A stretch of DNA of 60,084 nt, counting the filler, from Sanchytrium tribonematis (taxonomy: Eukaryota): the NCBI GenBank assembly GCA_018985235.1. It is 4 parts of 4 records of this genome, joined end to end, with 100 filler letters (N's around TTAATTAATTAA, not from the genome) between each part and the next. Parts side by side here need not be neighbours in the genome. Positions count along the whole stretch, not along the records: positions 1 to 15,021 come from JADGIG010000159.1; 3 more parts are not named here. One strand, written 5' to 3'. How positions within the stretch are numbered: the first letter of the stretch is position 1; every line of letters begins with the position of its first letter. This document shows, one piece after another, positions 1,839 through 35,061 of the stretch. The position numbers and the translations under genes are program-made. The notes under the pieces are model-generated. The model had not been told where the DNA came from, searched no databases, and worked only from the letters and a program-made list of their open reading frames with translations.

Positions 1839-3683
1839 TTAAAAAGCCAAAGAAGTATTCCATTGGATTCCATAGCTAATGATCAAGTCTGATATAGCTG
1901 TTGTAGCAGCCAACGCAGCAAAGTTGAATGGTTGAGAAAGCACAGAAAGAGTTAAAAATTGACTTGAAATTCTTAACAGATCTACTGAAGTATGCAGTCC
2001 AAGCATCAATTTTTTTTGCTTGTACTTTTGTGGTAGACTTTCAATAGTTCGGCGATCAATTTTTTGAAATCTGAAAACTGTGAATGGCACTTTGTAAACC
2101 GTTAGTTGCAAAAATTGTCCCACAACATTCGGGTATAGTACTAAAGGATTAGGGATAAAGCTGAGAAAAGAGTTGAAAAGTCTCGCAACATGTAGCCTGA
2201 TGTCTGGGACAGAAAATGTTGGCTTAAATAGCTGATGTGGCGCTGATAGCATCGCGATGATAAAAGACGGCGAATTCCAAAGAGGGTTAAGCCAATTAAC
2301 AACCGGTATAGATTTTATAACAGAAAATGGAATCTGGTATGTAAATCCGAATGATACTAGTAATCTCTCAGCCCAATGTAATTTCAATAAAACCGGCTTG
2401 TCAAGAAATTGCAACTTTTCAAACTTTTTAATGGAAACAATCATATTAACATCCTCATCACTGAATTTAATAGTATATTTGTCAAAATACAGATTAATTT
2501 TTGCCGCAGCAGGAATCAAAAAGAAATCTATAATTCTTAATTGGTCGTTGAGCCTATTGCCCAGCCAAGATGATACCCCGGGTATGATTAATGGTAGTTC
2601 AATAATAGAATATTGAATTTTAGCTAAAAAATCTGCGAATGGCCTTAAAATACTCGTGATGAGATTAAATAATGCGCCTGTGATTTTTTTGACAAGTTTC
2701 CAAACAATTTTTACAATGCCCAGAACGCTAGATACAAGTTGGGAAAGATCCCCTTTAACGTTGTTAAACTGGTCCAAGACACTAAATTCAGCTGTGCTTA
2801 AATGAGCCTGTAATTGCTTATTCGCTACAACGTCCTTCAGCTTGATAGTAAAACTATCATGTGCTTTAATTAGATCAGCAGCACTTTGAGAATGCACTCT
2901 ATCTATGTTCTCTACGAATGTACCTAACAGAACATTTCTACTTGAGGAAGTAGTGATTGTGTTAATGTGATCTGAATGATCCACTAGAGTGGTATTGAAA
3001 TCAAATTGTAAGTCTTGCGTGAATGTAATATTCTTGATTTGTCGGAGACTAAAATCAAACACTAGATTCAAGTAGTGCCATAATATTTTCCTATTATTAA
3101 TGAGAGTCCCGAAATCAAAGGCTTGTCGAATTTGTTTTATAAGATTTAGAATTGATTTGGAGAGGGATTGAAAGAGCTTCTTAATCCAATCCCATAAGCC
3201 CTTGATTTTATCAGATATAGAGCTAGCTTCAATGCTTGGAAAATCTTCTATATCAATTGGAATACTTTCTCCAGCCTTTATATTGTATGTGTATCCAGCC
3301 ACTTGGGCCAACTTATACTCTTCAGATCCATGTTGGGCTTTGTTTTTGTTTTCGTAAAGAGCAAAGTGCGCTGCTGTATCTAGATGCAATTGCTTAGTTC
3401 CATTTTTATACTTAATAGTTATTACTTCTAAATAAATGTCGTTGTCATCCAAAATTGGATATCTCAAATAAATCTCGCCCAACTTGTTCGCTGTTAAGTT
3501 GCTTACAAGTACTATTTCATCCTTGATAATCAATTTTGTTGGAGTAATAAAAATAATATCGAATGGTTCAACTGTAAGTTGAGTGTAATGAATTGTCACA
3601 TCTTGATTTTGTAAAACATATTGGTGCGTTTTTTGGTAAATATCGAACGAAAACGATATTGAGAGTAACAAATATACTAACAT
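1839..3683 (-). CDS. Hypothetical secreted/membrane-associated protein, 614 aa
   Basis: Long ORF with short hydrophobic N-terminus (MLVYLLLSISFS), amphipathic helices and a hydrophobic C-terminal third; no family recognised. Confidence 0.7.
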   Translation of the reverse strand: MLVYLLLSISFSFDIYQKTHQYVLQNQDVTIHYTQLTVEPFDIIFITPTKLIIKDEIVLVSNLTANKLGEIYLRYPILDDNDIYLEVITIKYKNGTKQLHLDTAAHFALYENKNKAQHGSEEYKLAQVAGYTYNIKAGESIPIDIEDFPSIEASSISDKIKGLWDWIKKLFQSLSKSILNLIKQIRQAFDFGTLINNRKILWHYLNLVFDFSLRQIKNITFTQDLQFDFNTTLVDHSDHINTITTSSSRNVLLGTFVENIDRVHSQSAADLIKAHDSFTIKLKDVVANKQLQAHLSTAEFSVLDQFNNVKGDLSQLVSSVLGIVKIVWKLVKKITGALFNLITSILRPFADFLAKIQYSIIELPLIIPGVSSWLGNRLNDQLRIIDFFLIPAAAKINLYFDKYTIKFSDEDVNMIVSIKKFEKLQFLDKPVLLKLHWAERLLVSFGFTYQIPFSVIKSIPVVNWLNPLWNSPSFIIAMLSAPHQLFKPTFSVPDIRLHVARLFNSFLSFIPNPLVLYPNVVGQFLQLTVYKVPFTVFRFQKIDRRTIESLPQKYKQKKLMLGLHTSVDLLRISSQFLTLSVLSQPFNFAALAATTAISDLIISYGIQWNTSLAF

Positions 3684-8218: not shown

Positions 8219-9323
8219 ATGGGGTGTGCTTCGAGTTCTGAAAATAAAGAAGGAAAAAGACAAAATGATGAAATTGAAAATCAAATTAAAAATGACAGAC
8301 TTAAAATGAGGTCTGAAGTTAAAATGTACGTGATTTATTCTAATTTAGGCTTTTACTTGGAGCTGGAGAATCAGGAAAATCAACTATTTTGAAGCAAATG
8401 CAATTGATCCACGGATCGGGCTATAGTAATGATGAGCGAGAAGCATTTAAAGAAATTATATTCAGCAATACAGTGCAAAGTATGCGTGTAATTTTAGATG
8501 CCATGGAATCCCTAGGTGTCTCTCTAGATAACGAAGGTAACAAAAAGCATAGAGAGACTGTGATGAATCAACCTTCTCAGATTGAGTCCGACCACTTCCC
8601 AAAAGACGTTTCTACAGCCGTCAAGGAATTATGGAATGATGCAGGTGTGAAAGAATGCTTTGGTAGATCTCGAGAATACCAATTAAACGATTCTTCACGA
8701 TATTATTTCGATGCTATTGATCGCATGACTGAGCCAAATTACTTGCCAACTGATCAAGATATTTTAAGATCGCGTGTTAAAACAACAGGAATTGTTGAAA
8801 CTACTTTTAAAATTGGCGACCTCACATACAGAATGTTTGACGTTGGTGGACAAAGAAGTGAGCGTAAGAAATGGATTCATTGTTTTGAAAATGTAACAGC
8901 GATCATTTTCATGGTTGCTATTTCTGAATATGACCAAGTTTTACTTGAAGATGAGACTGTCGTAATTTATTTTTTACTTAGAATCGTATGCAGGAAGCCT
9001 TGACTTTATTTGATTCAATTTGCAATTCAAGATGGTTTGTGAAAACATCAATCATTTTGTTTTTAAACAAAATTGATTTATTCAAGGAGAAAATCAAGAG
9101 ATCGCCTATTAGCAAATTTTTCCCAGACTACACTGGCGGGGAAGATTATGATGCGGCTTGCGAATACTTTTTGCATCGATTTGTTTCTTTGAATCAGTCT
9201 GATGTGAAACAAGTGTACACCCATTTCACTTGTGCAACAGATACCACGCAAATCAAATTTGTTATGGCTGCCGTTAATGATATTATTATTCAGACTAATT
9301 TGCGGGATGTCGGATTATTGTAA
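8219..9323 (+). CDS. Heterotrimeric G-protein alpha subunit (Gi-like/fungal group I), 3 exons, 353 aa
   Basis: MGCASS acylation motif, GAGESGKS, RVKTTG, DVGGQRSE, NKxD, TCAT. Exons 8219-8325, 8349-8961, 8982-9323; introns of 23 nt (8326-8348) and 20 nt (8962-8981) restore the frame. Confidence 0.95.
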
Positions 9324-9349: not shown

Positions 9350-12115
9350 TTAAGGAAGAAATTCCGAATAAGTTTTTTGAGAGTGAACACTTTCTCTAGA
9401 AGATTTAGAAAATACCTCGCTTCCCTTTTTCCTCATGATTGGAGTCCCGGGTTCTCTTTCAGTGATGGAGTTTTTAGATTTGAGTAATTTAGATTCTTGA
9501 GACTCTGCAAAAGAAGATCTTGACCTAATATTTTTAGCTGCTTCAATATTTTCTGACAACCGTCTATTTCGAATAAGTTTTTTCTGAGGGCCCTCAATCA
9601 TTAAATCAGTTAGATAATCTAATGCCGACGACCATGCTTCCTCTGTTTCAATGTCAAATTCAGAAAGTAAAAATTCTCTCATAGTTTGCAGCAGACAGGA
9701 AGTTAATCGTGTAAACATGTCAGGACGAACACCCCATTCTTCATGCTGCTTGCCATGTTCTCTTATTTTGTCTTCATGCTCCTCAATTTGCTCTAGTTTT
9801 TTGACAACAAGACTAATAAGCCCACCAAAAGCTTTGGATTGACTCATGACATCTGGGAAAAATTTAACAAACTCTTTATCTGTGGTAAAAAGATTATCAT
9901 AATATTTAAAGCTGAAAATTGTAGTGGCCGACTTCTGGAACTCTAAGGTGTCTTTTGGGAAATAATTAAGTGAGATATTTTTTGGATCTATTTTTAAAGT
10001 GACAAGCTTCTCCCAACTTCTACTAATAAGTTTAATCTGTAGTGGACAAATTTTAGGACCTACTGGGGCGGGCCGCTTTAACATTGAATTTGTTTCCGCC
10101 CTCCTGCGGATTTTGGGTCCTTCTATCATAAAAGCTCCTACTAGATTAAGAGCTTGCTTCCATGCCGAAAATGCAGTCAAGTCAAATTCTTCACCTAAAA
10201 ATTCTTTCAAAGTTGCAATTAAACATCTTTCTTGACACTCATAAAATTGTGGTTTAATTCCACTTATTTCAGAGTTTTTTCTACCTTGTTCTCTGATTTT
10301 GTCTTCGTAAAAATCTACGAATTCTAGTTTTTCTGTAATAGTGAATAAGAGACTTGCAAAATCCGCTCTTTGTTTTTCTGGACTATTATACATTGTTGAA
10401 AATTCAGAGTATTCCCACAAAAGATTATCATAGTACTTCACGCAAAACATTGTCTGGATCTTGATTCCGCTCTTGTTTATTCCCGTGAGTAAAAGTTGAT
10501 CACTACATTTTAATTTGAATGAAGAGTATGGTATCGTCTTTTCTAACAAAAGCTCCCAAGAATTTCTTATGATTTCTATTTTGTCCTCTGAAAATTGGTT
10601 CACTAAAATATTTGCAAATTTATCATCGTCGCTTAGTGATTCTTTTTGGCCCTCAATCATAAATTGAATCACAACCTCAAAACATGTTCTCCAAGATTTT
10701 AATAAATTTGCAGATAATTTTTCAAGCAAAAATTCTTGAAGTGTCTTGAGCGTAGCGTCCTTTATGCGACCGAGCATCGCTCCGTTAATTTTATGTAGCT
10801 CTAGATGAATTCGTCCAAGATTTTTCGCATAATGCTGAAAATCAGTTGAATTTTCAAACTTTATGAGAATTACATCAAATAATCCATCAAACATTTTTTT
10901 TAATGACATAAAATTAGGAAAATAGTAACGAAGTGATGGCACCTCAAAAAATAAATTGTCGTACATTTTTAATACAAAATATTCCATATTGGAGGGATTG
11001 GTCGCTTGATCAAATAGGCTTTTCATGTCAAAGGTTTTAAATTTAAGCCTTTTTGGATCTAGATTCATATTCTTAACTAATTCCCAAGACCTTCTCATAT
11101 TTCGAAGTTCTATTTGAGATACCTTTTCATCTAGGTTATCAGTGCTTTTCGCTTTCAATCGACTCTCCTTTTCATTGAATCCCTCTATCATAGCATTAAT
11201 GATCGTCGAAAATGCATGTTTCCACGCTTTCTTTGCGGTAAACCCAAATTCATCTGACAGAATAATTTCAAAAGTTTCAAGTAAACTTTCTGCAAAAGCC
11301 TCTAAATGTTTTTTCTCAACTTGGTACTCTTCCATATGTCGCCGACCAAGCTTTTTAAAGTAATAACTATTATCCTCCAACTTCGAAGACTTAAATATCA
11401 TTCCTTCCATCATTTTTACAAAAGCTTTTCGTTGCGTCATTTCTTCTGGAAACATTGCGGCCATTGTTGGTTCCTTTTTGAACAACAAGTCGTAAAATTG
11501 AAAATGAAAAATTGTCACAGGATCGGTTTGCCGGTTGCTACCACCTAACATTTTCCGTAAATCCTCATTTGTTAGTTGAATGCTTTCTGGGGTGAGTTTC
11601 TTTTGTAGAACCAAATCCCATGGCTTTTTTAGTGCATCCGTATTGTTTTTCTTTTTGTCAAAAATTTGAGTTAGCATTTTTCGCTTTTTCTCTGCTTTTG
11701 CTCCAATAATTATAGCAACAACATCTGAAAGTCCTATCTTCCATAGTTGTAGCTGATCTATACTCACCTGATCTTGCAGAATATCTTCTATCACAATGAT
11801 GAAGTTATCAATCCACGCGTTAAGAATATCTGGATTTAAATGACCCAGTATGATCTTTAAGGATTCTTGCTTGCTGGGGTCTTGTTTTCGCACTTGTGCC
11901 GCTGCATCTAAAAGCGCGTTTATAAGATTAATATTTAAATAGGTTTTGATCTCTTGATATTTGTTTATCACATTGTCGATAGTAAGGAGAATAAATGTGG
12001 ACGCGTTGTCAATTTCAAATTGAGTTTTATCAATATTCTCGAGGCTAACTCTGGCATAATCAAACTCGATAATTAATTTCCAACTAGCTTCCAACAGATC
12101 ATTGGGGATTGACAT
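9350..12115 (-). CDS. Tandem multi-globin-domain protein (4 clear globin repeats plus a degenerate N-terminal one)
   Basis: Repeated pattern [SP]W ... F..x[FMY]YD[NL]L ... F[P] ... G[RK]xH ... AW/SW ... MIEG. B10 Tyr at aa 208/385/562/739; F8 at H260/H437/N614/H791. Confidence 0.85.
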   Translation of the reverse strand: MSIPNDLLEASWKLIIEFDYARVSLENIDKTQFEIDNASTFILLTIDNVINKYQEIKTYLNINLINALLDAAAQVRKQDPSKQESLKIILGHLNPDILNAWIDNFIIVIEDILQDQVSIDQLQLWKIGLSDVVAIIIGAKAEKKRKMLTQIFDKKKNNTDALKKPWDLVLQKKLTPESIQLTNEDLRKMLGGSNRQTDPVTIFHFQFYDLLFKKEPTMAAMFPEEMTQRKAFVKMMEGMIFKSSKLEDNSYYFKKLGRRHMEEYQVEKKHLEAFAESLLETFEIILSDEFGFTAKKAWKHAFSTIINAMIEGFNEKESRLKAKSTDNLDEKVSQIELRNMRRSWELVKNMNLDPKRLKFKTFDMKSLFDQATNPSNMEYFVLKMYDNLFFEVPSLRYYFPNFMSLKKMFDGLFDVILIKFENSTDFQHYAKNLGRIHLELHKINGAMLGRIKDATLKTLQEFLLEKLSANLLKSWRTCFEVVIQFMIEGQKESLSDDDKFANILVNQFSEDKIEIIRNSWELLLEKTIPYSSFKLKCSDQLLLTGINKSGIKIQTMFCVKYYDNLLWEYSEFSTMYNSPEKQRADFASLLFTITEKLEFVDFYEDKIREQGRKNSEISGIKPQFYECQERCLIATLKEFLGEEFDLTAFSAWKQALNLVGAFMIEGPKIRRRAETNSMLKRPAPVGPKICPLQIKLISRSWEKLVTLKIDPKNISLNYFPKDTLEFQKSATTIFSFKYYDNLFTTDKEFVKFFPDVMSQSKAFGGLISLVVKKLEQIEEHEDKIREHGKQHEEWGVRPDMFTRLTSCLLQTMREFLLSEFDIETEEAWSSALDYLTDLMIEGPQKKLIRNRRLSENIEAAKNIRSRSSFAESQESKLLKSKNSITEREPGTPIMRKKGSEVFSKSSRESVHSQKTYSEFLP

Positions 12116-12234
12116 TCAAAGCCACAAATCATTATATTTGAATGTAATCACAATTTCAAAGAATAGGCATGAGGAACCAAGCTGCCAAAGTAGATATTCA
12201 ATTTGCTCCCACATCAAAGATGGTTTTTATTTTT

Positions 12235-14179
12235 TTAGCGAAGAAAATCTACCATTTCCATATCTAAGCTTTGAGACTTGGAGAATACTTTGGGCCCAAA
12301 AAACTTAGAATTTTGATTAATCATTTGGACCAACTTATCTTTTAGAGCAACGAGCGATTTCAATTGCGCCTGTCGAGTCAAATCTTTTGCTTCAGCACTA
12401 TAACAGGTTAAATAGCTTTTCCCAATCGCTTCAATGCAATCGAGAACAAGAGGAGAGATATCCGGTATGTAATTGAGTAGCTCTTCATCCAAATAGAATG
12501 AGCTTTGATTTGTTAAGAAAACCTTGCTGTTTTCAATATACTAAGTTAGCTACAAATACCTCTACGGCTTTCAGAAATTGCTGCTCAACCAAAGCGTCTT
12601 TAAAATATACCAAATCAAGCAATCGCATTGTAATTTTTAGGTCAGTTGATTGAGAATATTGTTTGACATACTTTTCAGTCAATTTGATCAAATCATTTTT
12701 CTGAAAGGTGTATAAGGGGATCCCTTGTATGATTCTTGTTAAACTTTCATTTAACCGATGTAATACAGCCTCATAATTTTGAGAATAATCCCATAGATAC
12801 AGCGCAGTCTCGATTTTCTTTTGTGCCAAGGCTTGAGTTGCAGCTGATGAAACTATGCTCTCCTTGAATTCAACTTCGCTCAAATTCATTTTTGGAAGAT
12901 ATTCCACCAGCCCTTTTTGCAGCAAATAATCAAGATCATTTTTGTTAGCATGGACAAGCAAATCTGTCCATTGCGATTGAACAAACTTTAAAAATATCCC
13001 TTTCCCATTGATAAGTTGCATTAGGTAGAACACCTTGTCTTTCAATTCAGAGAGATTTAGAATATATGAAATAATTAGATTCTGAATGTGGAACGTTCTA
13101 TTATATTGATCAAACAAGGTGTCTGATAAAATGGGAGAAGTTGGCACCAATAATTTTTGGTTTTGATGCAATAGAATAGCAATATGTATAGCGTCCAAAG
13201 CGTACTTCGAATCCTGAAGTAAATAGTTTAAGCCTTGACCATATTCCATTACAGAGAAGCATTTTTGTGCTTTGTCGTGAGGACTTCCTTTGGACAAATC
13301 CAATTCTTTTTTGATATCCTCCAAAGATTTGGCCCCCGTTGTAAACAGATGCAAAAGATGCCAAAACATGTGTTCCCAAGTATTATGAATCACCCTATCT
13401 AATTCTAATTGCTCTCTTGGTGCCAAAATGTCACCTCTACATTTTTTCAAAGCTAATGAATAAACATCGTCTCCAAGATTGAGCCTTTTTAAATCTACAG
13501 GCAAACCTGTTCTTAATGAAAAATATAACTTTTGGCTGGAAGTACCTTCCAAGTTTTTGACTCTCATGAATCCGTCAATCAATTCTTCTTGATTAAAGTT
13601 ATTTCCAATCTTCGAAATAGCACTATGGCGCTCAACCACTTTCTGCATGATATCCCTAAATTCAGATTCTAGATAAGTTTTTGCTTTTACAATAACATTT
13701 TGAGGGGAACTTTCCTTATATATAAAATTCACCATTTTCCAGAGACGAGCCTGCCCTACGTCCGCCCAGTGCTCCATGACAGTAGATTTAAATTTGTTTT
13801 CGCCTTGGATTTTCAACTCTAGCATAGATTGCTTTGGCATTATAGCCATACAATTTTCTTTGATGTTTTTGATTATATCCTGATAAACTTCATCTAATTC
13901 TTGTACAATGTGCTGCTCATACTTTAAATTAGAGATGTTAAATGCATTTAAAACAGCGTTTTGCTCGAACTCTTGAGTTTTATCTAAGTTGGTAGCTTTT
14001 CTTTTGTGAAATGAATTTTGGTAGTAATTCAGATGATCTAGTTGCTTAGTTGCTGGCGGTGCTTGGGAGCTCAATTTTTTAGAAAGTGAATAAATACTGG
14101 AAATATTGGTAGTGTAAGAATTTAGATTTTTAGCCTGTTGCAAAAGCTGTTGCAAATCTTCGACTTTTGAATTGGTCAT
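12235..14179 (-). CDS. NIC96: Nucleoporin Nic96/Nup93 (divergent), 2 exons, ~641 aa
   Basis: LQQLLQQAKNL N-terminus, AKTYLESEF, LYFSLRTG and DAIHIAILL motifs. The 19-nt intron at 12541-12559 (gtatttgtagctaacttag) joins the two ORF-track frames. Confidence 0.75.
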
Positions 14180-15809: not shown

Positions 15810-18490
15810 TGGTAGCGAGGAAATCCATCTTTCAAAAGCAGAAGGCCACTGTTTAGGAATTGGTGTTTCAGAAATGCAAGAAAACCCCGAAATTGAGAAA
15901 ACCCCAAAACCAAAAAAAATGGAGAAAATTATCAAAGTTGAAAACATCATTTTAAAGGATTTCAAGAAAAAGTAAGAAAAAGGTGTCTTAAATAAAATGG
16001 ATTCGGCAGGCACAAAATTAGTTAAACACGAAAAAGAAATTAAAAACATTAAAAATAAAATTGAAAAAGGCCTGCTTCGAAAATGAATCCACCCACAGGA
16101 GAGATCGAAGGCCGTTTCTCAAATGTGGCGCAAGCAATGGAACAGCTTGGGGATTCTGCGGGGTCTCCGAGACTTGCGTTAAGACCACCCTTTGAGCAAG
16201 CAATTGAGTCTGATAGCATGGACGGTTCAGAAGAAAATGCCTTGGTTGAAAGAGAAGGTTACTTAGAGTCAAAAGAACTAAGTCCAACCATCAGAAATGA
16301 TCCTGATCCACATAGTAATGGATCAGATGACGACAACAGTTCGAATCCCTCACGAGGAGATTCAAGTGACTATAGTCAAGCAAGAAGAGGATCAATGACT
16401 AACAGTCTAACCTCTAATACTGCACCACCACCACCTGTGCAAACTAAAACTAGGAGTCCTGTCTTGGATAAAAGAAGTTTAAATACTATTTCTTCACTAT
16501 GTAAGAATAGTTTAGATAAGTATCATCCAAAAAATGAGATTGAGCCCTGATTCAGAAAGTTGGAGTTTATGTGTGACCTTCACCATTTGGATAAAGATCA
16601 TAGGAAGTTTTTCATGATTAGACTGATGCCTGAGCACGCATTCAAGCACATTGAGAGAAGGTATAAAGGTACCTTATGAAAAATTGAAAAAGAAGGTTAT
16701 TCGTCTATACAGACCGAAGGGTGTCCTAGACTCTTTGTTCAAGGGGAAACTTGTCGCCAGAAACCAGGTGAAAAATATGAGCGCTTTTAAGACAGAGTGC
16801 TAGACTACATTGCATTACAAAGGCAATGGTAGCAATGAAGTTAAGAAATTATTGCTATGATCCTGAAATTCAGAAGAAAATTAGCTTACGTGGAGGCTTT
16901 GAGCCTAAGACAATTTCGTCACACGCCTTAAAGTTGGAAAGGTATAATGGTGGACCATTGGGATCAATGGGAGGAAACATGGCACCACGTAAGAGAAAGT
17001 CCTATGATCGACCAGAATTTCGAAAGAAATATAAATACGATTAATATGACAAGGGCGCAAACAGTGGCAAAGACAAGAACAGAGAAAAGCCTGATAAGTT
17101 TAAAGCTCAGTGCTTTAGATGTGGCAAATTAGGTCAATTTAGCCGCGACTGTCCGAAGAAAAAGAAGGGTTATTTCAAACCTGATATGAGCAGACTTAAC
17201 ACGTTCACGTTTTCAAATAAACCAGTTGAACCTTATTCTTTTACATTGAACAATATTGAAGTCTTGATTGATGGTGGAGCATTCCTAACCTGATTTCAGA
17301 GCAGTTTGCACTTGATCCGGAATTCCTAGACTTAGTGCTAGAGAATCGACTGAGATAAGATGTTACAAAATGACGTTATTGAGCCGTCTAATTCGGATTG
17401 GAGATCTGCAGTGGTTTTAATGACAAAACCAGATGGATCTGTTCGATTTTGTGTAAACTATAAGCAATTAAACAAACACACGAAGTTTGACGCGTATCCG
17501 TTACCGGATCTAAATTCTCGACTAGAACTGAAATCGGGATATTGGCAAATTAATTTAGCAGATCCCGACAAAGAAAAAACGGCCTTTGTGACACCATTTG
17601 GGCTGCAACTCCAATCAAGCAACCACCAGTTGGAACTACAAATCCTGAAGATTTTGCAGTTGGTCTGCCACCAATTGACTCCAATCAAACCACTCCAATC
17701 TCAAGTAACGCGAAAGCAAAAGCTCGAAGATTCAAGCGAAAATACGATACTGACAAATTAAAGTCAGCATTGGCTCAAATCAGAGTCAAATGCCGTCAAA
17801 TATTAAAATCTGCGCATTTAGAAGAAGGCCCAAATGCTTTTAAAGAGCTTAATGAGGCTGTGGATGCTGGGATTGAGGCAAATGTAAGAGCAAATGGAAG
17901 AAGAGTTTGACGTCGAAAAAATAAGCGGCTTTAAAATCACTAGAATCGGGTCAAACTCAGACTGTTGGTGATGATAAAGTGTTTTGGGAGCCAATGAAAA
18001 ATGTTGAAAATACATTGGCCTTTCGTGATTTTAGTAAAAATGCGAAAAAAACCCAATCACATCTTTTACAAATATATTAAAGGAAAATAAAAAAAACATT
18101 ACAGTAAAAATAGAAAAAAAATTAAGAGTGGGAAATGTAACAGGAATGTCATCTAAAACAGAGCACCTGGTTCAGACAGTACTTAAAGAGGTTCATGATG
18201 GTCTATTGGCTACTCACTCTGGAAGAGAACAGGTGACCTTTCACCTAAGAAAATATTATATAGAAGTTGTGGAGAAGTGAAATAGCAAAAGGGCTGCGAT
18301 TGATTTACAGATTGGTGATAAAGTATACGTGGTAAAAACAATTCCAGGTCGTGAGCTAGAAGATAAGCTAGAGGATGACACAATTACAATACTTAAGTTC
18401 TTTGGAAAAGATTCAAAGAAAGTCTTAGTGAAAGAGAAATTGGATCTAAGCCCGCAAACTGTTAAGGAGGCCTTTTTAAAGAAAGAGGGA

Positions 18491-34212: not shown

Positions 34213-34563
34213 ATGAAAAATTACATGATATGTTTTTGGGATGATTGCCAACAAGATGTAGACGACATTATGGAGCATTTAAGTTCACATGTTGGATATC
34301 AAAAAGAATTTAGTTTTCATGGAAAATGCATGTGGAAATTTTGCAAGGTGTCGAAATCAACGCGATCAAGGTTACTGAGTCATTTGAGATCTCATTTGGA
34401 TTTGCGCCCTTACAAATGTCACTGCGGCAAAAAATTTAAAAGAAAAAGTGACCTTAAGGCTCACAACAACGTATGTAAGACCAAGTTTGAAAAGGCAGTT
34501 CAGTTACTTTTTCATGGAATCCCTATCCCACACAACTTTGAATGCTTTGTATGGATGAAATAA
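34213..34563 (+). CDS. Minimal PacC/Rim101-like three-finger zinc-finger protein
   Basis: CFWDDC..HLSSHVG, CMWKFC...SHLRSH, LRPYKCHCGKKFKRKSDLKAH...C. Confidence 0.8.
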   Translation: MKNYMICFWDDCQQDVDDIMEHLSSHVGYQKEFSFHGKCMWKFCKVSKSTRSRLLSHLRSHLDLRPYKCHCGKKFKRKSDLKAHNNVCKTKFEKAVQLLFHGIPIPHNFECFVWMK

Positions 34564-34734: not shown

Positions 34735-35061
34735 ATGTTCTGCGAGTGGGGAGGTTGTCACCAAATTCTTACAAAAGAAGAGACCTTGAATCACTTGAGC
34801 GATCACGTTGGTTTTAAAAGGAGAAATAGCTTTGATGGTATATGCAGATGGAAGCACTGCAATGTCCGAAAATCTGATAGAACAAAGCTAATTTCACATG
34901 TTATCTCGCACATCAAGGTCGTATTTTACAATTGTGAATGCGGTAAAACTTTTAAACGAAAGTCTGATCATGCCGCGCATAGGAAGAAATGCAATGCATA
35001 CTTTGATTCGATCGTTAATATATTGTTTGAAGGGCTGCCCGATAAACCCACGGAACATTAG
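34735..35061 (+). CDS. Second minimal PacC/Rim101-like zinc-finger protein (tandem paralogue)
   Basis: CEWGGC..HLSDHVG, CRWKHC...SHVISH, CECGKTFKRKSDHAAH...C; ATG at 34735. Confidence 0.8.
   Translation: MFCEWGGCHQILTKEETLNHLSDHVGFKRRNSFDGICRWKHCNVRKSDRTKLISHVISHIKVVFYNCECGKTFKRKSDHAAHRKKCNAYFDSIVNILFEGLPDKPTEH

What the first reader, a model, noticed from the sequence alone, without database searches (positions are those of the whole stretch)
9350..12115. Concatenated multi-globin protein: 4 (+1) globin domains at a 177-aa period
Seen: four repeats (aa ~156-312, 333-489, 509-666, 690-842; nt ~11650-11180, 11119-10649, 10591-10118, 10048-9590). Each has an A-helix Trp, a long A-B insertion, B10 Tyr (208/385/562/739), a CD1 aromatic (F222/F399/Y576/F753), F8 (260/437/614/791), an H-helix Trp and a terminal MIEG. 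A degenerate fifth repeat occupies aa 1-138, and a Ser/basic tail follows. There is no FAD/NAD reductase, kinase or cyclase domain and no signal peptide. Established: fungal globins are usually flavohaemoglobins or single-domain proteins; the F..FY.NL/FP/G.RH pattern with an A-B insertion recalls yeast YNL234W-type globins; polymeric globins are known mainly from invertebrates (Artemia, Ascaris, Biomphalaria). Inference: a possibly undescribed intracellular multi-haem O2/NO/redox sensor or store.
Basis: partly seen in the sequence, partly recalled or inferred. Interest (0 to 1): 0.9.

Follow-up and report, generated by a model that had tools for sequence, protein, structure and literature searches.

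The report
Fungal five-globin chain with empty domains
A fungus, likely one of the alga-parasitising sanchytrids, encodes one protein made of five haemoglobin-like domains in a row, three with the haem-binding histidine and two without it, so it likely acts as an oxygen or nitric-oxide sensing scaffold rather than an oxygen store, and we found no description of such a multi-globin in fungi.

Summary
Real. The 921-aa ORF holds five tandem 3/3 globin domains at a 177-aa period. One correction: F8 of the repeat at aa 509-668 is Asn614, not His. Only D1, D2 and D4 can ligate haem normally; D0 (degenerate, confirmed) and D3 look haem-less. Orthologues exist in Amoeboradix gromovi, in a syntenic block, and in unnamed records. 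A second five-domain paralogue has an intact D0 and Tyr at F8 of D1. The repeats form one clade, next to single-domain globins sharing the A-B insert and short CD corner, often CaaX-tailed. Multi-globins are known in animals and turned up in Bodo and Sulcionema, so the class is not new. Unusual: a fungal case, with 10 of 28 family domains lacking His F8 against 7 of 303 elsewhere (detection-biased). Best guess: O2/NO/redox-sensing scaffold (0.4); rival: NO dioxygenase with external reductant (0.3). Nothing is tested biochemically. The scan had no look-alike of this sequence, only unrelated multi-globins in other genomes.

The parts
9350..12115 (-). Single-frame ORF, 921 aa, five tandem globin domains plus tail (paralogue A of the family)
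   Evidence: GC 0.345 and GC3 0.311, like 17 other window ORFs; one 4616-base contig spans it with no differences (the run may be the source, so not independent)
11696..12115 (-). D0, aa 1-140: degenerate pseudo-globin; B10, CD1, E7 and F8 lost, E-F region shortened; predicted haem-less
   Evidence: folds as a helical domain at pLDDT about 77-91; 49-58% identical among 4 orthologues; not matched by any structure-search row
11171..11650 (-). D1, aa 156-315: globin with TyrB10 208, PheCD1 222, GlnE7, PheE11, HisF8 260; the most conserved domain
   Evidence: Pfam 43 bits; 70-85% identity among orthologues; residues; structure row only Z 10.3, rmsd 3.9, 138 aligned to GLB-6
10640..11119 (-). D2, aa 333-492: globin with TyrB10 385, LeuE7 (apolar distal side), PheE11, HisF8 437; His kept in 6 of 6 family members
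   Evidence: Pfam 27.3 bits; Z 15.4, rmsd 2.5, 139 aligned to E. coli flavohaemoglobin 1gvh
10112..10591 (-). D3, aa 509-668: globin fold with Asn614 at F8 (Gln and Val in the two orthologues that reach it) and Tyr at CD1; predicted haem-less or non-canonical
   Evidence: Pfam 15.3 bits, under cut-off; Z 15.9, rmsd 2.8, 136 aligned to 1gvh; 54-59% identity
9590..10048 (-). D4, aa 690-842: globin with TyrB10 739, GlnE7 759, PheE11 763, HisF8 791 (Phe in P0003)
   Evidence: Pfam 47.2 bits; Z 17.3, rmsd 1.8, 130 of 131 residues aligned to Hell's Gate globin I 3s1i
9353..9589 (-). Disordered basic, Ser-rich tail, aa 843-921, with an RRxS motif at 851-854; no CaaX
   Evidence: pLDDT under 50; net +9; RRxS in 3 of 3 full-length paralogue-A proteins; its reading as a PKA/PKG site is recalled and untested

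Best explanation
The gene encodes five tandem F-family (Hell's Gate globin I/neuroglobin-like) globin domains, three with the proximal histidine and two without, predicted to be joined by flexible linkers and likely to work as an oxygen, nitric-oxide or redox sensing scaffold in the cytosol. Shown: the repeats, their residues, their conservation, and two five-domain paralogues. Predicted: beads-on-a-string fold without fixed packing. Inferred: D1 and D4 (TyrB10/GlnE7) bind O2 tightly and react with NO; D2 (TyrB10/LeuE7) responds over a different range; ligand or oxidation state moves the D-helix-less CE loop and E helix, as in related bacterial globins. Inferred and weakest: the haem-less D0 and D3 and the basic, phosphorylatable tail carry the signal to partner proteins or anionic membranes, so that a parasite inside a photosynthetic alga reads the host's O2/NO state. 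The chain likely arose once, by amplification of a native eukaryotic single-domain globin, before the two paralogues split.
For: Haem-less domains are kept under conservation: D0 49-58%, D3 54-59% identity among orthologues, against 57-85% for D1, D2, D4. His F8 is missing in 10 of 28 family domains but in only 7 of 303 domains of 146 other library hits. The paralogues emptied different positions (A: D0, D3; B: Tyr in D1), and E7 is position-specific (Gln, Leu, Gln in A; Lys in D4 of B), which fits division of labour rather than more capacity. No reductase domain. AlphaFold2 gives five confident domains, low-confidence linkers and pTM 0.30. The nearest single-domain relatives end in Cys-x-x-x in 9 of 15 cases against 3 of 83 others (p 6e-7), pointing to a membrane-anchored lineage. 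RRxS is kept in 3 of 3 full-length A tails. Precedents: a haem-less pseudoglobin beside an active globin serves as an interface in syNOS (PMC12922734, passages); D-less TyrB10/GlnE7 globins undergo CE/E-helix movements proposed to move neighbour domains (PMC4476040, passages).
Against: No output domain and no partner identified. The neighbouring G-alpha gene is part of a wholly conserved 7-gene block, so it is no specific link. The 7-of-303 comparison is biased, because degenerate domains in other proteins may fall under the domain threshold. Low pTM from a 6-sequence alignment does not prove flexibility. P0003 lacks His F8 in D4, so the three-haem set is not universal. This protein has no CaaX. 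TyrB10/GlnE7 fits NO dioxygenation equally well. No haem binding, ligand binding or expression data exist.
Confidence: 0.4

Rival explanations
1. An NO dioxygenase or NO/ROS sink that stands in for the missing flavohaemoglobin: oxy-haems in D1, D2 and D4 turn host NO into nitrate and are re-reduced by a separate cytochrome b5 system; D0 and D3 are docking or structural modules.
For: Best solved relatives are flavohaemoglobin-lineage TyrB10/GlnE7 globins. In the readable part of the A. gromovi annotation the two multi-globins are the only COG1017/globin rows, with no COG1018 or 'flavohem' row (file cut), and a cytochrome b5 is present. Two unrelated multi-globins are fused to cytochrome b5 (P0025, P0039). 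All globins can do this reaction if a reductase is supplied (PMC3287990, passage); the syNOS globin is a NOD next to a pseudoglobin.
Against: No reductase in the chain; it does not explain two paralogues with different empty positions, LeuE7 in D2 or the conserved tail motif. The only b5-reductase-like row found is described as an NADH-dependent fumarate reductase.
Confidence: 0.3
2. A high-affinity O2 store or buffer, concatenated to raise haem number per chain, as in invertebrate polymeric haemoglobins.
For: Tandem layout; TyrB10/GlnE7 gives Hell's Gate globin I very high O2 affinity and low autoxidation (PMC4476040); sanchytrids are aerobic with a full respiratory chain (PMC8371127 sections 6 and 8).
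Against: Two of five domains lack the proximal His yet are conserved, whereas all 14 domains of the sea-urchin multi-globin keep His F8 (PMC4527676). Codon bias is low within the window's range (0.089; range 0.059-0.217; weak). A store is of little use in micrometre-sized cells (own reasoning).
Confidence: 0.12
3. A carrier for hydrophobic ligands (free haem, other tetrapyrroles or lipids) taken from the host, the His-less pockets holding non-haem ligands.
For: Sanchytrids lack steroid and fatty-acid metabolism and carotenoid synthesis; flavohaemoglobin-type pockets can hold a phospholipid; D3 keeps an intact fold without His.
Against: A. gromovi encodes HEM1, ALAD, UROD, HEM13 and ferrochelatase, so it need not scavenge haem; D0 has a shortened E-F region, likely closing the pocket.
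Confidence: 0.1
4. Artefact: assembly duplication or a bacterial contaminant gene.
For: eggNOG labels the A. gromovi orthologue 'bacterial hemoglobin'; top PDB hits are bacterial.
Against: Repeats are only 37-41% alike as DNA and composition is native; the same architecture occurs in five other proteins; 7 of 7 annotated genes of the A. gromovi contig have counterparts in this window.
Confidence: 0.01

Closest known systems
Hell's Gate globin I (Methylacidiphilum infernorum; PDB 3s1i/3ubc) and other single-domain F-family globins (Vitreoscilla Hb, Cgb 2wy4, thermoglobin)
   Same: 3/3 fold without D helix, TyrB10/GlnE7/HisF8; profile E 2.4e-14; D4 model Z 17.3, rmsd 1.8, 130 of 131 residues
   Different: Five domains in one chain; A12-to-B10 distance 38-42 residues against 14-17; CD1-to-E7 one residue shorter; PheE11 instead of Leu; two domains without His F8
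Fungal reductase-less F globins: Mucoromycotina single-domain Fgb and Saccharomycotina central-domain globins such as YNL234W/NP_014165 (Hoogewijs 2012 PMC3287990; Vinogradov 2006 PMC1457004)
   Same: Unnamed library hits with this layout share the A-B insert, CD1-E7 spacing of 6 and TyrB10/GlnE7, and are the nearest branches; assignment to these named groups is inferred
   Different: They have one globin domain and often a CaaX-like end; this protein has five domains and no CaaX
Invertebrate multi-domain haemoglobins (Artemia 9, Ascaris 2, Branchipolynoe 4, planorbid 10 or more; PMC4503718) and the 14-domain neuroglobin-like sea-urchin globin (PMC4527676)
   Same: Tandem duplication of a 3/3 globin into one chain
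   Different: Independent origin; most are extracellular O2 carriers; the sea-urchin domains all keep His F8; here intracellular, with conserved haem-less domains
Protist and bacterial tandem F globins found here (Bodo saltans CUG06439.1; Sulcionema specki 7 globins plus cytochrome b5; unnamed 2-14-domain proteins) and multi-unit truncated globins (Hade et al. 2017, seen as a reference title only)
   Same: Multi-globin chains in microbes without a flavin reductase
   Different: Other branches of the tree, no long A-B insert in those checked, His F8 nearly always kept; the Hade set is the 2/2 fold
syNOS pseudoglobin-globin module (Synechococcus PCC 7335; PMC12922734)
   Same: A haem-less globin next to an active F-type globin; model regions 328-666 align with syNOS 173-472 (Z 12.8, rmsd 16.0)
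   Different: syNOS carries its own oxygenase and reductase; here there is no enzyme domain

Membership tests
3/3 myoglobin-fold globin (PF00042) | Profile score above the gathering cut-off | tested here: met
   Whole protein 107 bits; D1, D2, D4 pass singly; D3 (15.3) and D0 do not
3/3 myoglobin-fold globin (PF00042) | Helices A-H in a 3-over-3 sandwich | tested here: met
   Predicted model: D2, D3, D4 Z 15-17 to solved globins; D1 Z 10.3; D0 not covered by any row
3/3 myoglobin-fold globin (PF00042) | Proximal His F8 in D1, D2, D4 | tested here: met
   H260, H437, H791
3/3 myoglobin-fold globin (PF00042) | Proximal His F8 in D0 and D3 | tested here: not met
   Asn614 in D3; no His in the shortened F region of D0
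3/3 myoglobin-fold globin (PF00042) | Binds haem and reversibly binds O2/CO/NO | not testable with these tools
   Needs spectroscopy
F-family single-domain globin lineage (HGbI/VHb type) | TyrB10, GlnE7, no D helix, closest similarity to the flavohaemoglobin globin domain | tested here: met
   D1 and D4 Tyr/Gln, D2 Tyr/Leu; NCBIfam flavohaemoprotein positions 26-136 only; best PDB hits HGbI and HGbRL
Flavohaemoglobin | C-terminal FAD/NAD(P)H reductase domains | tested here: not met
   Only the globin part of NF009805 matches, 78 bits against cut-off 432; no other Pfam family
Globin-coupled sensor (S family) | Protoglobin/S-type sensor domain | tested here: not met
   No PF11563 hit for P0001 at E up to 1 or per domain at E up to 10; S-family structures rank lower, Z 11-12
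Globin-coupled sensor (S family) | Fused transmitter domain (MCP, kinase, cyclase, STAS) | tested here: not met
   None in Pfam or NCBIfam
YNL234W-type / Mucoromycotina reductase-less fungal F globins | Phylogenetic grouping with this lineage | tested here: inconclusive
   Adjacent to unnamed insert-bearing, CaaX-tailed globins with SH support 80-94; AU test p 0.45; no named YNL234W sequence in hand
YNL234W-type / Mucoromycotina reductase-less fungal F globins | A single globin domain with N- and C-terminal extensions | tested here: not met
   Five domains
Invertebrate polymeric respiratory haemoglobins | Secreted or circulating O2 carrier with haem in essentially all domains | tested here: not met
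   No hydrophobic leader by hydropathy (no signal-peptide predictor run); 2 of 5 domains lack His F8

The most novel reading that the evidence does not exclude
A lineage-specific multi-globin signalling hub: sanchytrid fungi turned a membrane-anchored single globin into two five-domain chains, each a different mosaic of haem sensors with distinct pockets and haem-less pseudo-globin adaptors, with which an intracellular parasite reads the photosynthetic O2 and defensive NO of its algal host. It would be the first multi-globin in fungi and a new sensor design with no fused enzyme.
Probability: 0.3. Interest if true: 0.85.

Novelty: new variant of a known kind. Interest (0 to 1): 0.62.

Why it matters
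The fungal globin census lists flavohaemoglobins, single-domain F and S globins and two T1 globins (PMC3287990). A five-domain chain, kept in two copies in about 11-Mb reduced parasite genomes and apparently their only globins, marks O2/NO chemistry as important to alga parasitism. Each position exists with and without its proximal His in natural paralogues, so the family is a ready comparison set for what pseudo-globin domains do. It also points to an overlooked group of CaaX-tailed eukaryotic globins.

Tried and rejected
Single-sequence AlphaFold2 was useless (pLDDT 35); the 6-sequence alignment worked. I expected the alternating-hydrophobic A-B insert to be a beta strand pairing between domains; the model shows no strands. 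G-alpha link (convergent neighbour; neuroglobin-G-alpha precedent recalled): rejected as evidence, since the whole block is syntenic. D0 homodimer prediction: no verdict (score 0.00, alignment not used, fold uncertain); not used either way. Locus scans found nothing: 589 pattern matches in metagenome contigs and 102 in prokaryote genomes, none confirmed. No whole genome is held, so paralogue B could not be sought in this organism. Sequencing runs: no RNA holder listed. Word-seeded search of 30-302-aa proteins gave one weak hit; the exhaustive library gave 3036. Atlas hits for D4 were under 0.9, leads only; two further Atlas requests for the N-terminal part got no answer. D0 was not covered by any structure-search row, which says nothing on its fold. 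The position tree did not recover D0 or D2 as clades, because long-branch D0-A nests in D2; hhalign also puts D0-A nearest D2 (E 5e-4), so D0-A may be a D2 copy rather than a D0-B orthologue. The AU test (p 0.45) does not settle origin. Haem scavenging is weakened by an intact haem pathway. Paper searches were too loose to inform.
Full report
Observation. The ORF at 9350-12115 (-) is one open frame of 921 codons. Pfam finds four Globin stretches (E 9.1e-31) and nothing else. Singly, D1, D2 and D4 pass the cut-off (43.0, 27.3, 47.2 bits); D3 scores 15.3 and D0 nothing. Ungapped self-comparison peaks at lags 177 and 354 (229, 155; 10 shuffles 32-62), and D1-D4 are 26-35% identical. D0 is a true repeat: 21.4 bits against a profile of the other 24 family domains (its three orthologues 13.6-15.3; best of about 1000 shuffles 10.1; reversed at most 6.4), hhalign probability 96%.

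Not an artefact. Two repeat pairs are 37% and 41% alike as DNA; GC, GC3 and codon use lie within the range of 17 other window ORFs. One 4616-base contig of run X1 covers the gene with no differences (X1 may be the source, so this is not independent).

Host and relatives. The closest named protein is from Amoeboradix gromovi (911 aa, 63%), of the alga-parasitic phylum Sanchytriomycota (PMC8371127; I read the abstract, sections 6, 8 and 10, and searched supplements). Its contig has 8 annotated rows for 7 genes (globin, PDAT, PHD finger, RPL6, G-alpha in two rows, thioesterase, ISA1), and all 7 have counterparts in this window. The window is therefore likely a sanchytrid (inference). Unnamed P0003 (902 aa) and P0004 (551 aa, three domains only) are further orthologues. 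A second paralogue, B, is P0008 (A. gromovi) and P0007 (unnamed; P0005 is its shorter cluster mate); it has five domains and an intact D0. In a tree of 28 domains plus 2 outgroups, D1, D3 and D4 group by position across paralogues (support 63/68, 81/99, 82/75), while D0 and D2 do not, the long D0-A branch nesting in D2. The chain thus likely predates the paralogue split, with the origin of D0-A unsettled.

Haem sites. Paralogue A: D0 degenerate (4 of 4); D1 His, GlnE7 (4 of 4); D2 His, LeuE7 (4 of 4); D3 Asn/Gln/Val at F8 and Tyr at CD1 (3 of 3); D4 His in 2 of 3 (Phe in P0003). Paralogue B: His in D0, D2, D3, D4; Tyr at F8 of D1; Lys at E7 of D4 (2 of 2 each). E11 is Phe in all 24 non-degenerate domains. 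In all, 18 of 28 domains keep His F8. Numbering follows the alignment to Hell's Gate globin I, whose Tyr29 is B10 and Gln50 E7 (PMC4476040, passages). Identity among A orthologues: D1 70-85%, D2 69-80%, D4 57-69%, D3 54-59%, D0 49-58%.

Fold. AlphaFold2 with six sequences gives five helical domains (mean pLDDT 72.6), linkers and tail under 50, pTM 0.30, no strands. D4 matches HGbI at Z 17.3, rmsd 1.8, 130 of 131 residues, and D2 matches E. coli flavohaemoglobin at Z 15.4, rmsd 2.5, 139 aligned; D3 matches the same at Z 15.9, rmsd 2.8, 136 aligned; D1 appears in one row (Z 10.3); D0 in none. The A12 Trp lies 38-42 residues before B10, against 14-17 in ordinary hits.

Wider family. The exhaustive library search gave 3036 hits at E up to 0.001; the best 150 were listed, 4 from this family and 146 others. 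Of the 146, 28 have three or more globin domains. I looked up 10: Bodo saltans, Sulcionema specki (7 globins plus cytochrome b5), Patiria miniata, one XP_011670837.1 record (sea urchin, recalled) and six without an organism; none was named fungal, and 18 of the 28 were not looked up. His F8 is kept in 296 of 303 domains of the 146, a count biased towards intact domains. A FastTree of 122 rows (24 family domains, D0-A left out; best domain of 98 of the 146 hits, 48 dropped for lacking a full core) puts the family in one clade (SH 93), apart from the other multi-globins, next to single-domain globins with the same six-residue CD1-E7 spacing. Nine of those 15 end in Cys-x-x-x against 3 of 83 others (p 6e-7), and many have an A-B insert. 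One of them scores 0.92 to an Atlas cluster that is 94% eukaryotic, mostly Oomycota; an Ascomycota cluster follows at 0.86, a lead only. A 41-row IQ-TREE agrees with moderate support; the AU test (p 0.45) does not settle the branching. Hoogewijs 2012 (first 10,000 characters, passages and Table S1 rows read) places Mucoromycotina single-domain F globins next to the Saccharomycotina central-domain class, to which NP_014165 belongs (PMC1457004, passages; its identity with YNL234W is recalled). I infer, not show, that our nearest hits are that lineage. A native eukaryotic origin is likelier than the 'bacterial hemoglobin' label of the automatic annotation.

Mechanism. Storage fits poorly, since haem-less domains are conserved and pockets differ by position. 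NO dioxygenation fits the TyrB10/GlnE7 pockets and the apparent absence of a flavohaemoglobin in A. gromovi (2 globin rows, 0 COG1018, 0 'flavohem' in the 4.0 million characters held; the file is cut), with cytochrome b5 present. A sensing scaffold explains more of the anatomy: complementary empty positions in two paralogues, position-specific E7, flexible linkers, a basic tail with RRxS in 3 of 3 full-length A proteins, and CaaX-tailed kin. syNOS shows a haem-less pseudoglobin used as an interface beside an active globin (PMC12922734, passages). Against it, there is no output domain or partner, and the G-alpha neighbour is block synteny. I give sensor-scaffold 0.4, NO dioxygenase 0.3, store 0.12, ligand carrier 0.1; the first two share chemistry and may both hold.

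Prior description. 'Globin' does not occur in the main text of the sanchytrid genome paper; its supplement carries only automatic labels. Searches for Amoeboradix plus globin and for globin, haemoglobin, Blastocladiomycota and Chytridiomycota since 2013 gave 0 papers; of 58 papers with multi-domain-globin phrases, the 40 listed showed none on fungi by title or abstract start. A 2015 paper states that tandem multi-domain globins were known only from invertebrates and prokaryotes (PMC4503718, first 10,000 characters). The library lacks most subscription papers; Hade 2017 was seen as a title only, and two large supplements of PMC8371127 could not be read.

Verdict. Real, conserved, and a new variant of a known kind: multi-globin chains have arisen many times, but a fungal one built as a stable mosaic of haem-competent and haem-less domains appears undescribed. 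Interest 0.62.

Noticed in passing
library proteins P0072, P0074, P0089, P0106, P0108, P0129, P0131, P0140, P0159: A group of single-domain eukaryotic F globins ends in a CaaX-like motif, several after a polybasic stretch, suggesting prenylated membrane globins; 'prenyl' has 0 occurrences in the fungal globin census.
   Followed up: partly
P0007 and P0008 (paralogue B): D1 has Tyr at F8 (possible tyrosinate-ligated or empty site), D4 has Lys at E7 (possible hexacoordination), and a Pro plus five-basic-residue run follows D4, resembling a nuclear localisation signal (recalled motif).
   Followed up: no
P0025, P0039, P0035, P0037, P0038: Other multi-globin fusions: 7 globins plus cytochrome b5 (Sulcionema specki), 5 globins plus two b5, C2 plus 5 globins, 6 globins plus ankyrins, CheW plus 3 globins.
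   Followed up: no
window 8398-9323 (+): G-alpha gene read as two ORFs, likely split by an intron, convergent with the globin gene with 26 bases between the stops; G-alpha and globin records share contig lengths 6329 and 14613 in other sources, so the adjacency seems conserved.
   Followed up: partly
window 1839-3683 (-): 614-aa ORF with a hydrophobic N-terminus and no Pfam family at cut-off; overlaps the start of the DnaJ ORF (689-1873) by 35 bases.
   Followed up: no
window 17360-17761 (+): Short reverse-transcriptase-like fragment (RVT_1 E 0.0013, under cut-off), probably a decayed retroelement.
   Followed up: no
window 34213-34563 and 34735-35061 (+): Two adjacent small paralogous C2H2-type zinc-finger ORFs.
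   Followed up: no
window 12152-12218 and 12845-12905: Nine variant positions at about 35-40% depth in run X1, upstream of the gene and in the Nic96 gene, none inside the globin ORF; alleles or a mixed sample.
   Followed up: no
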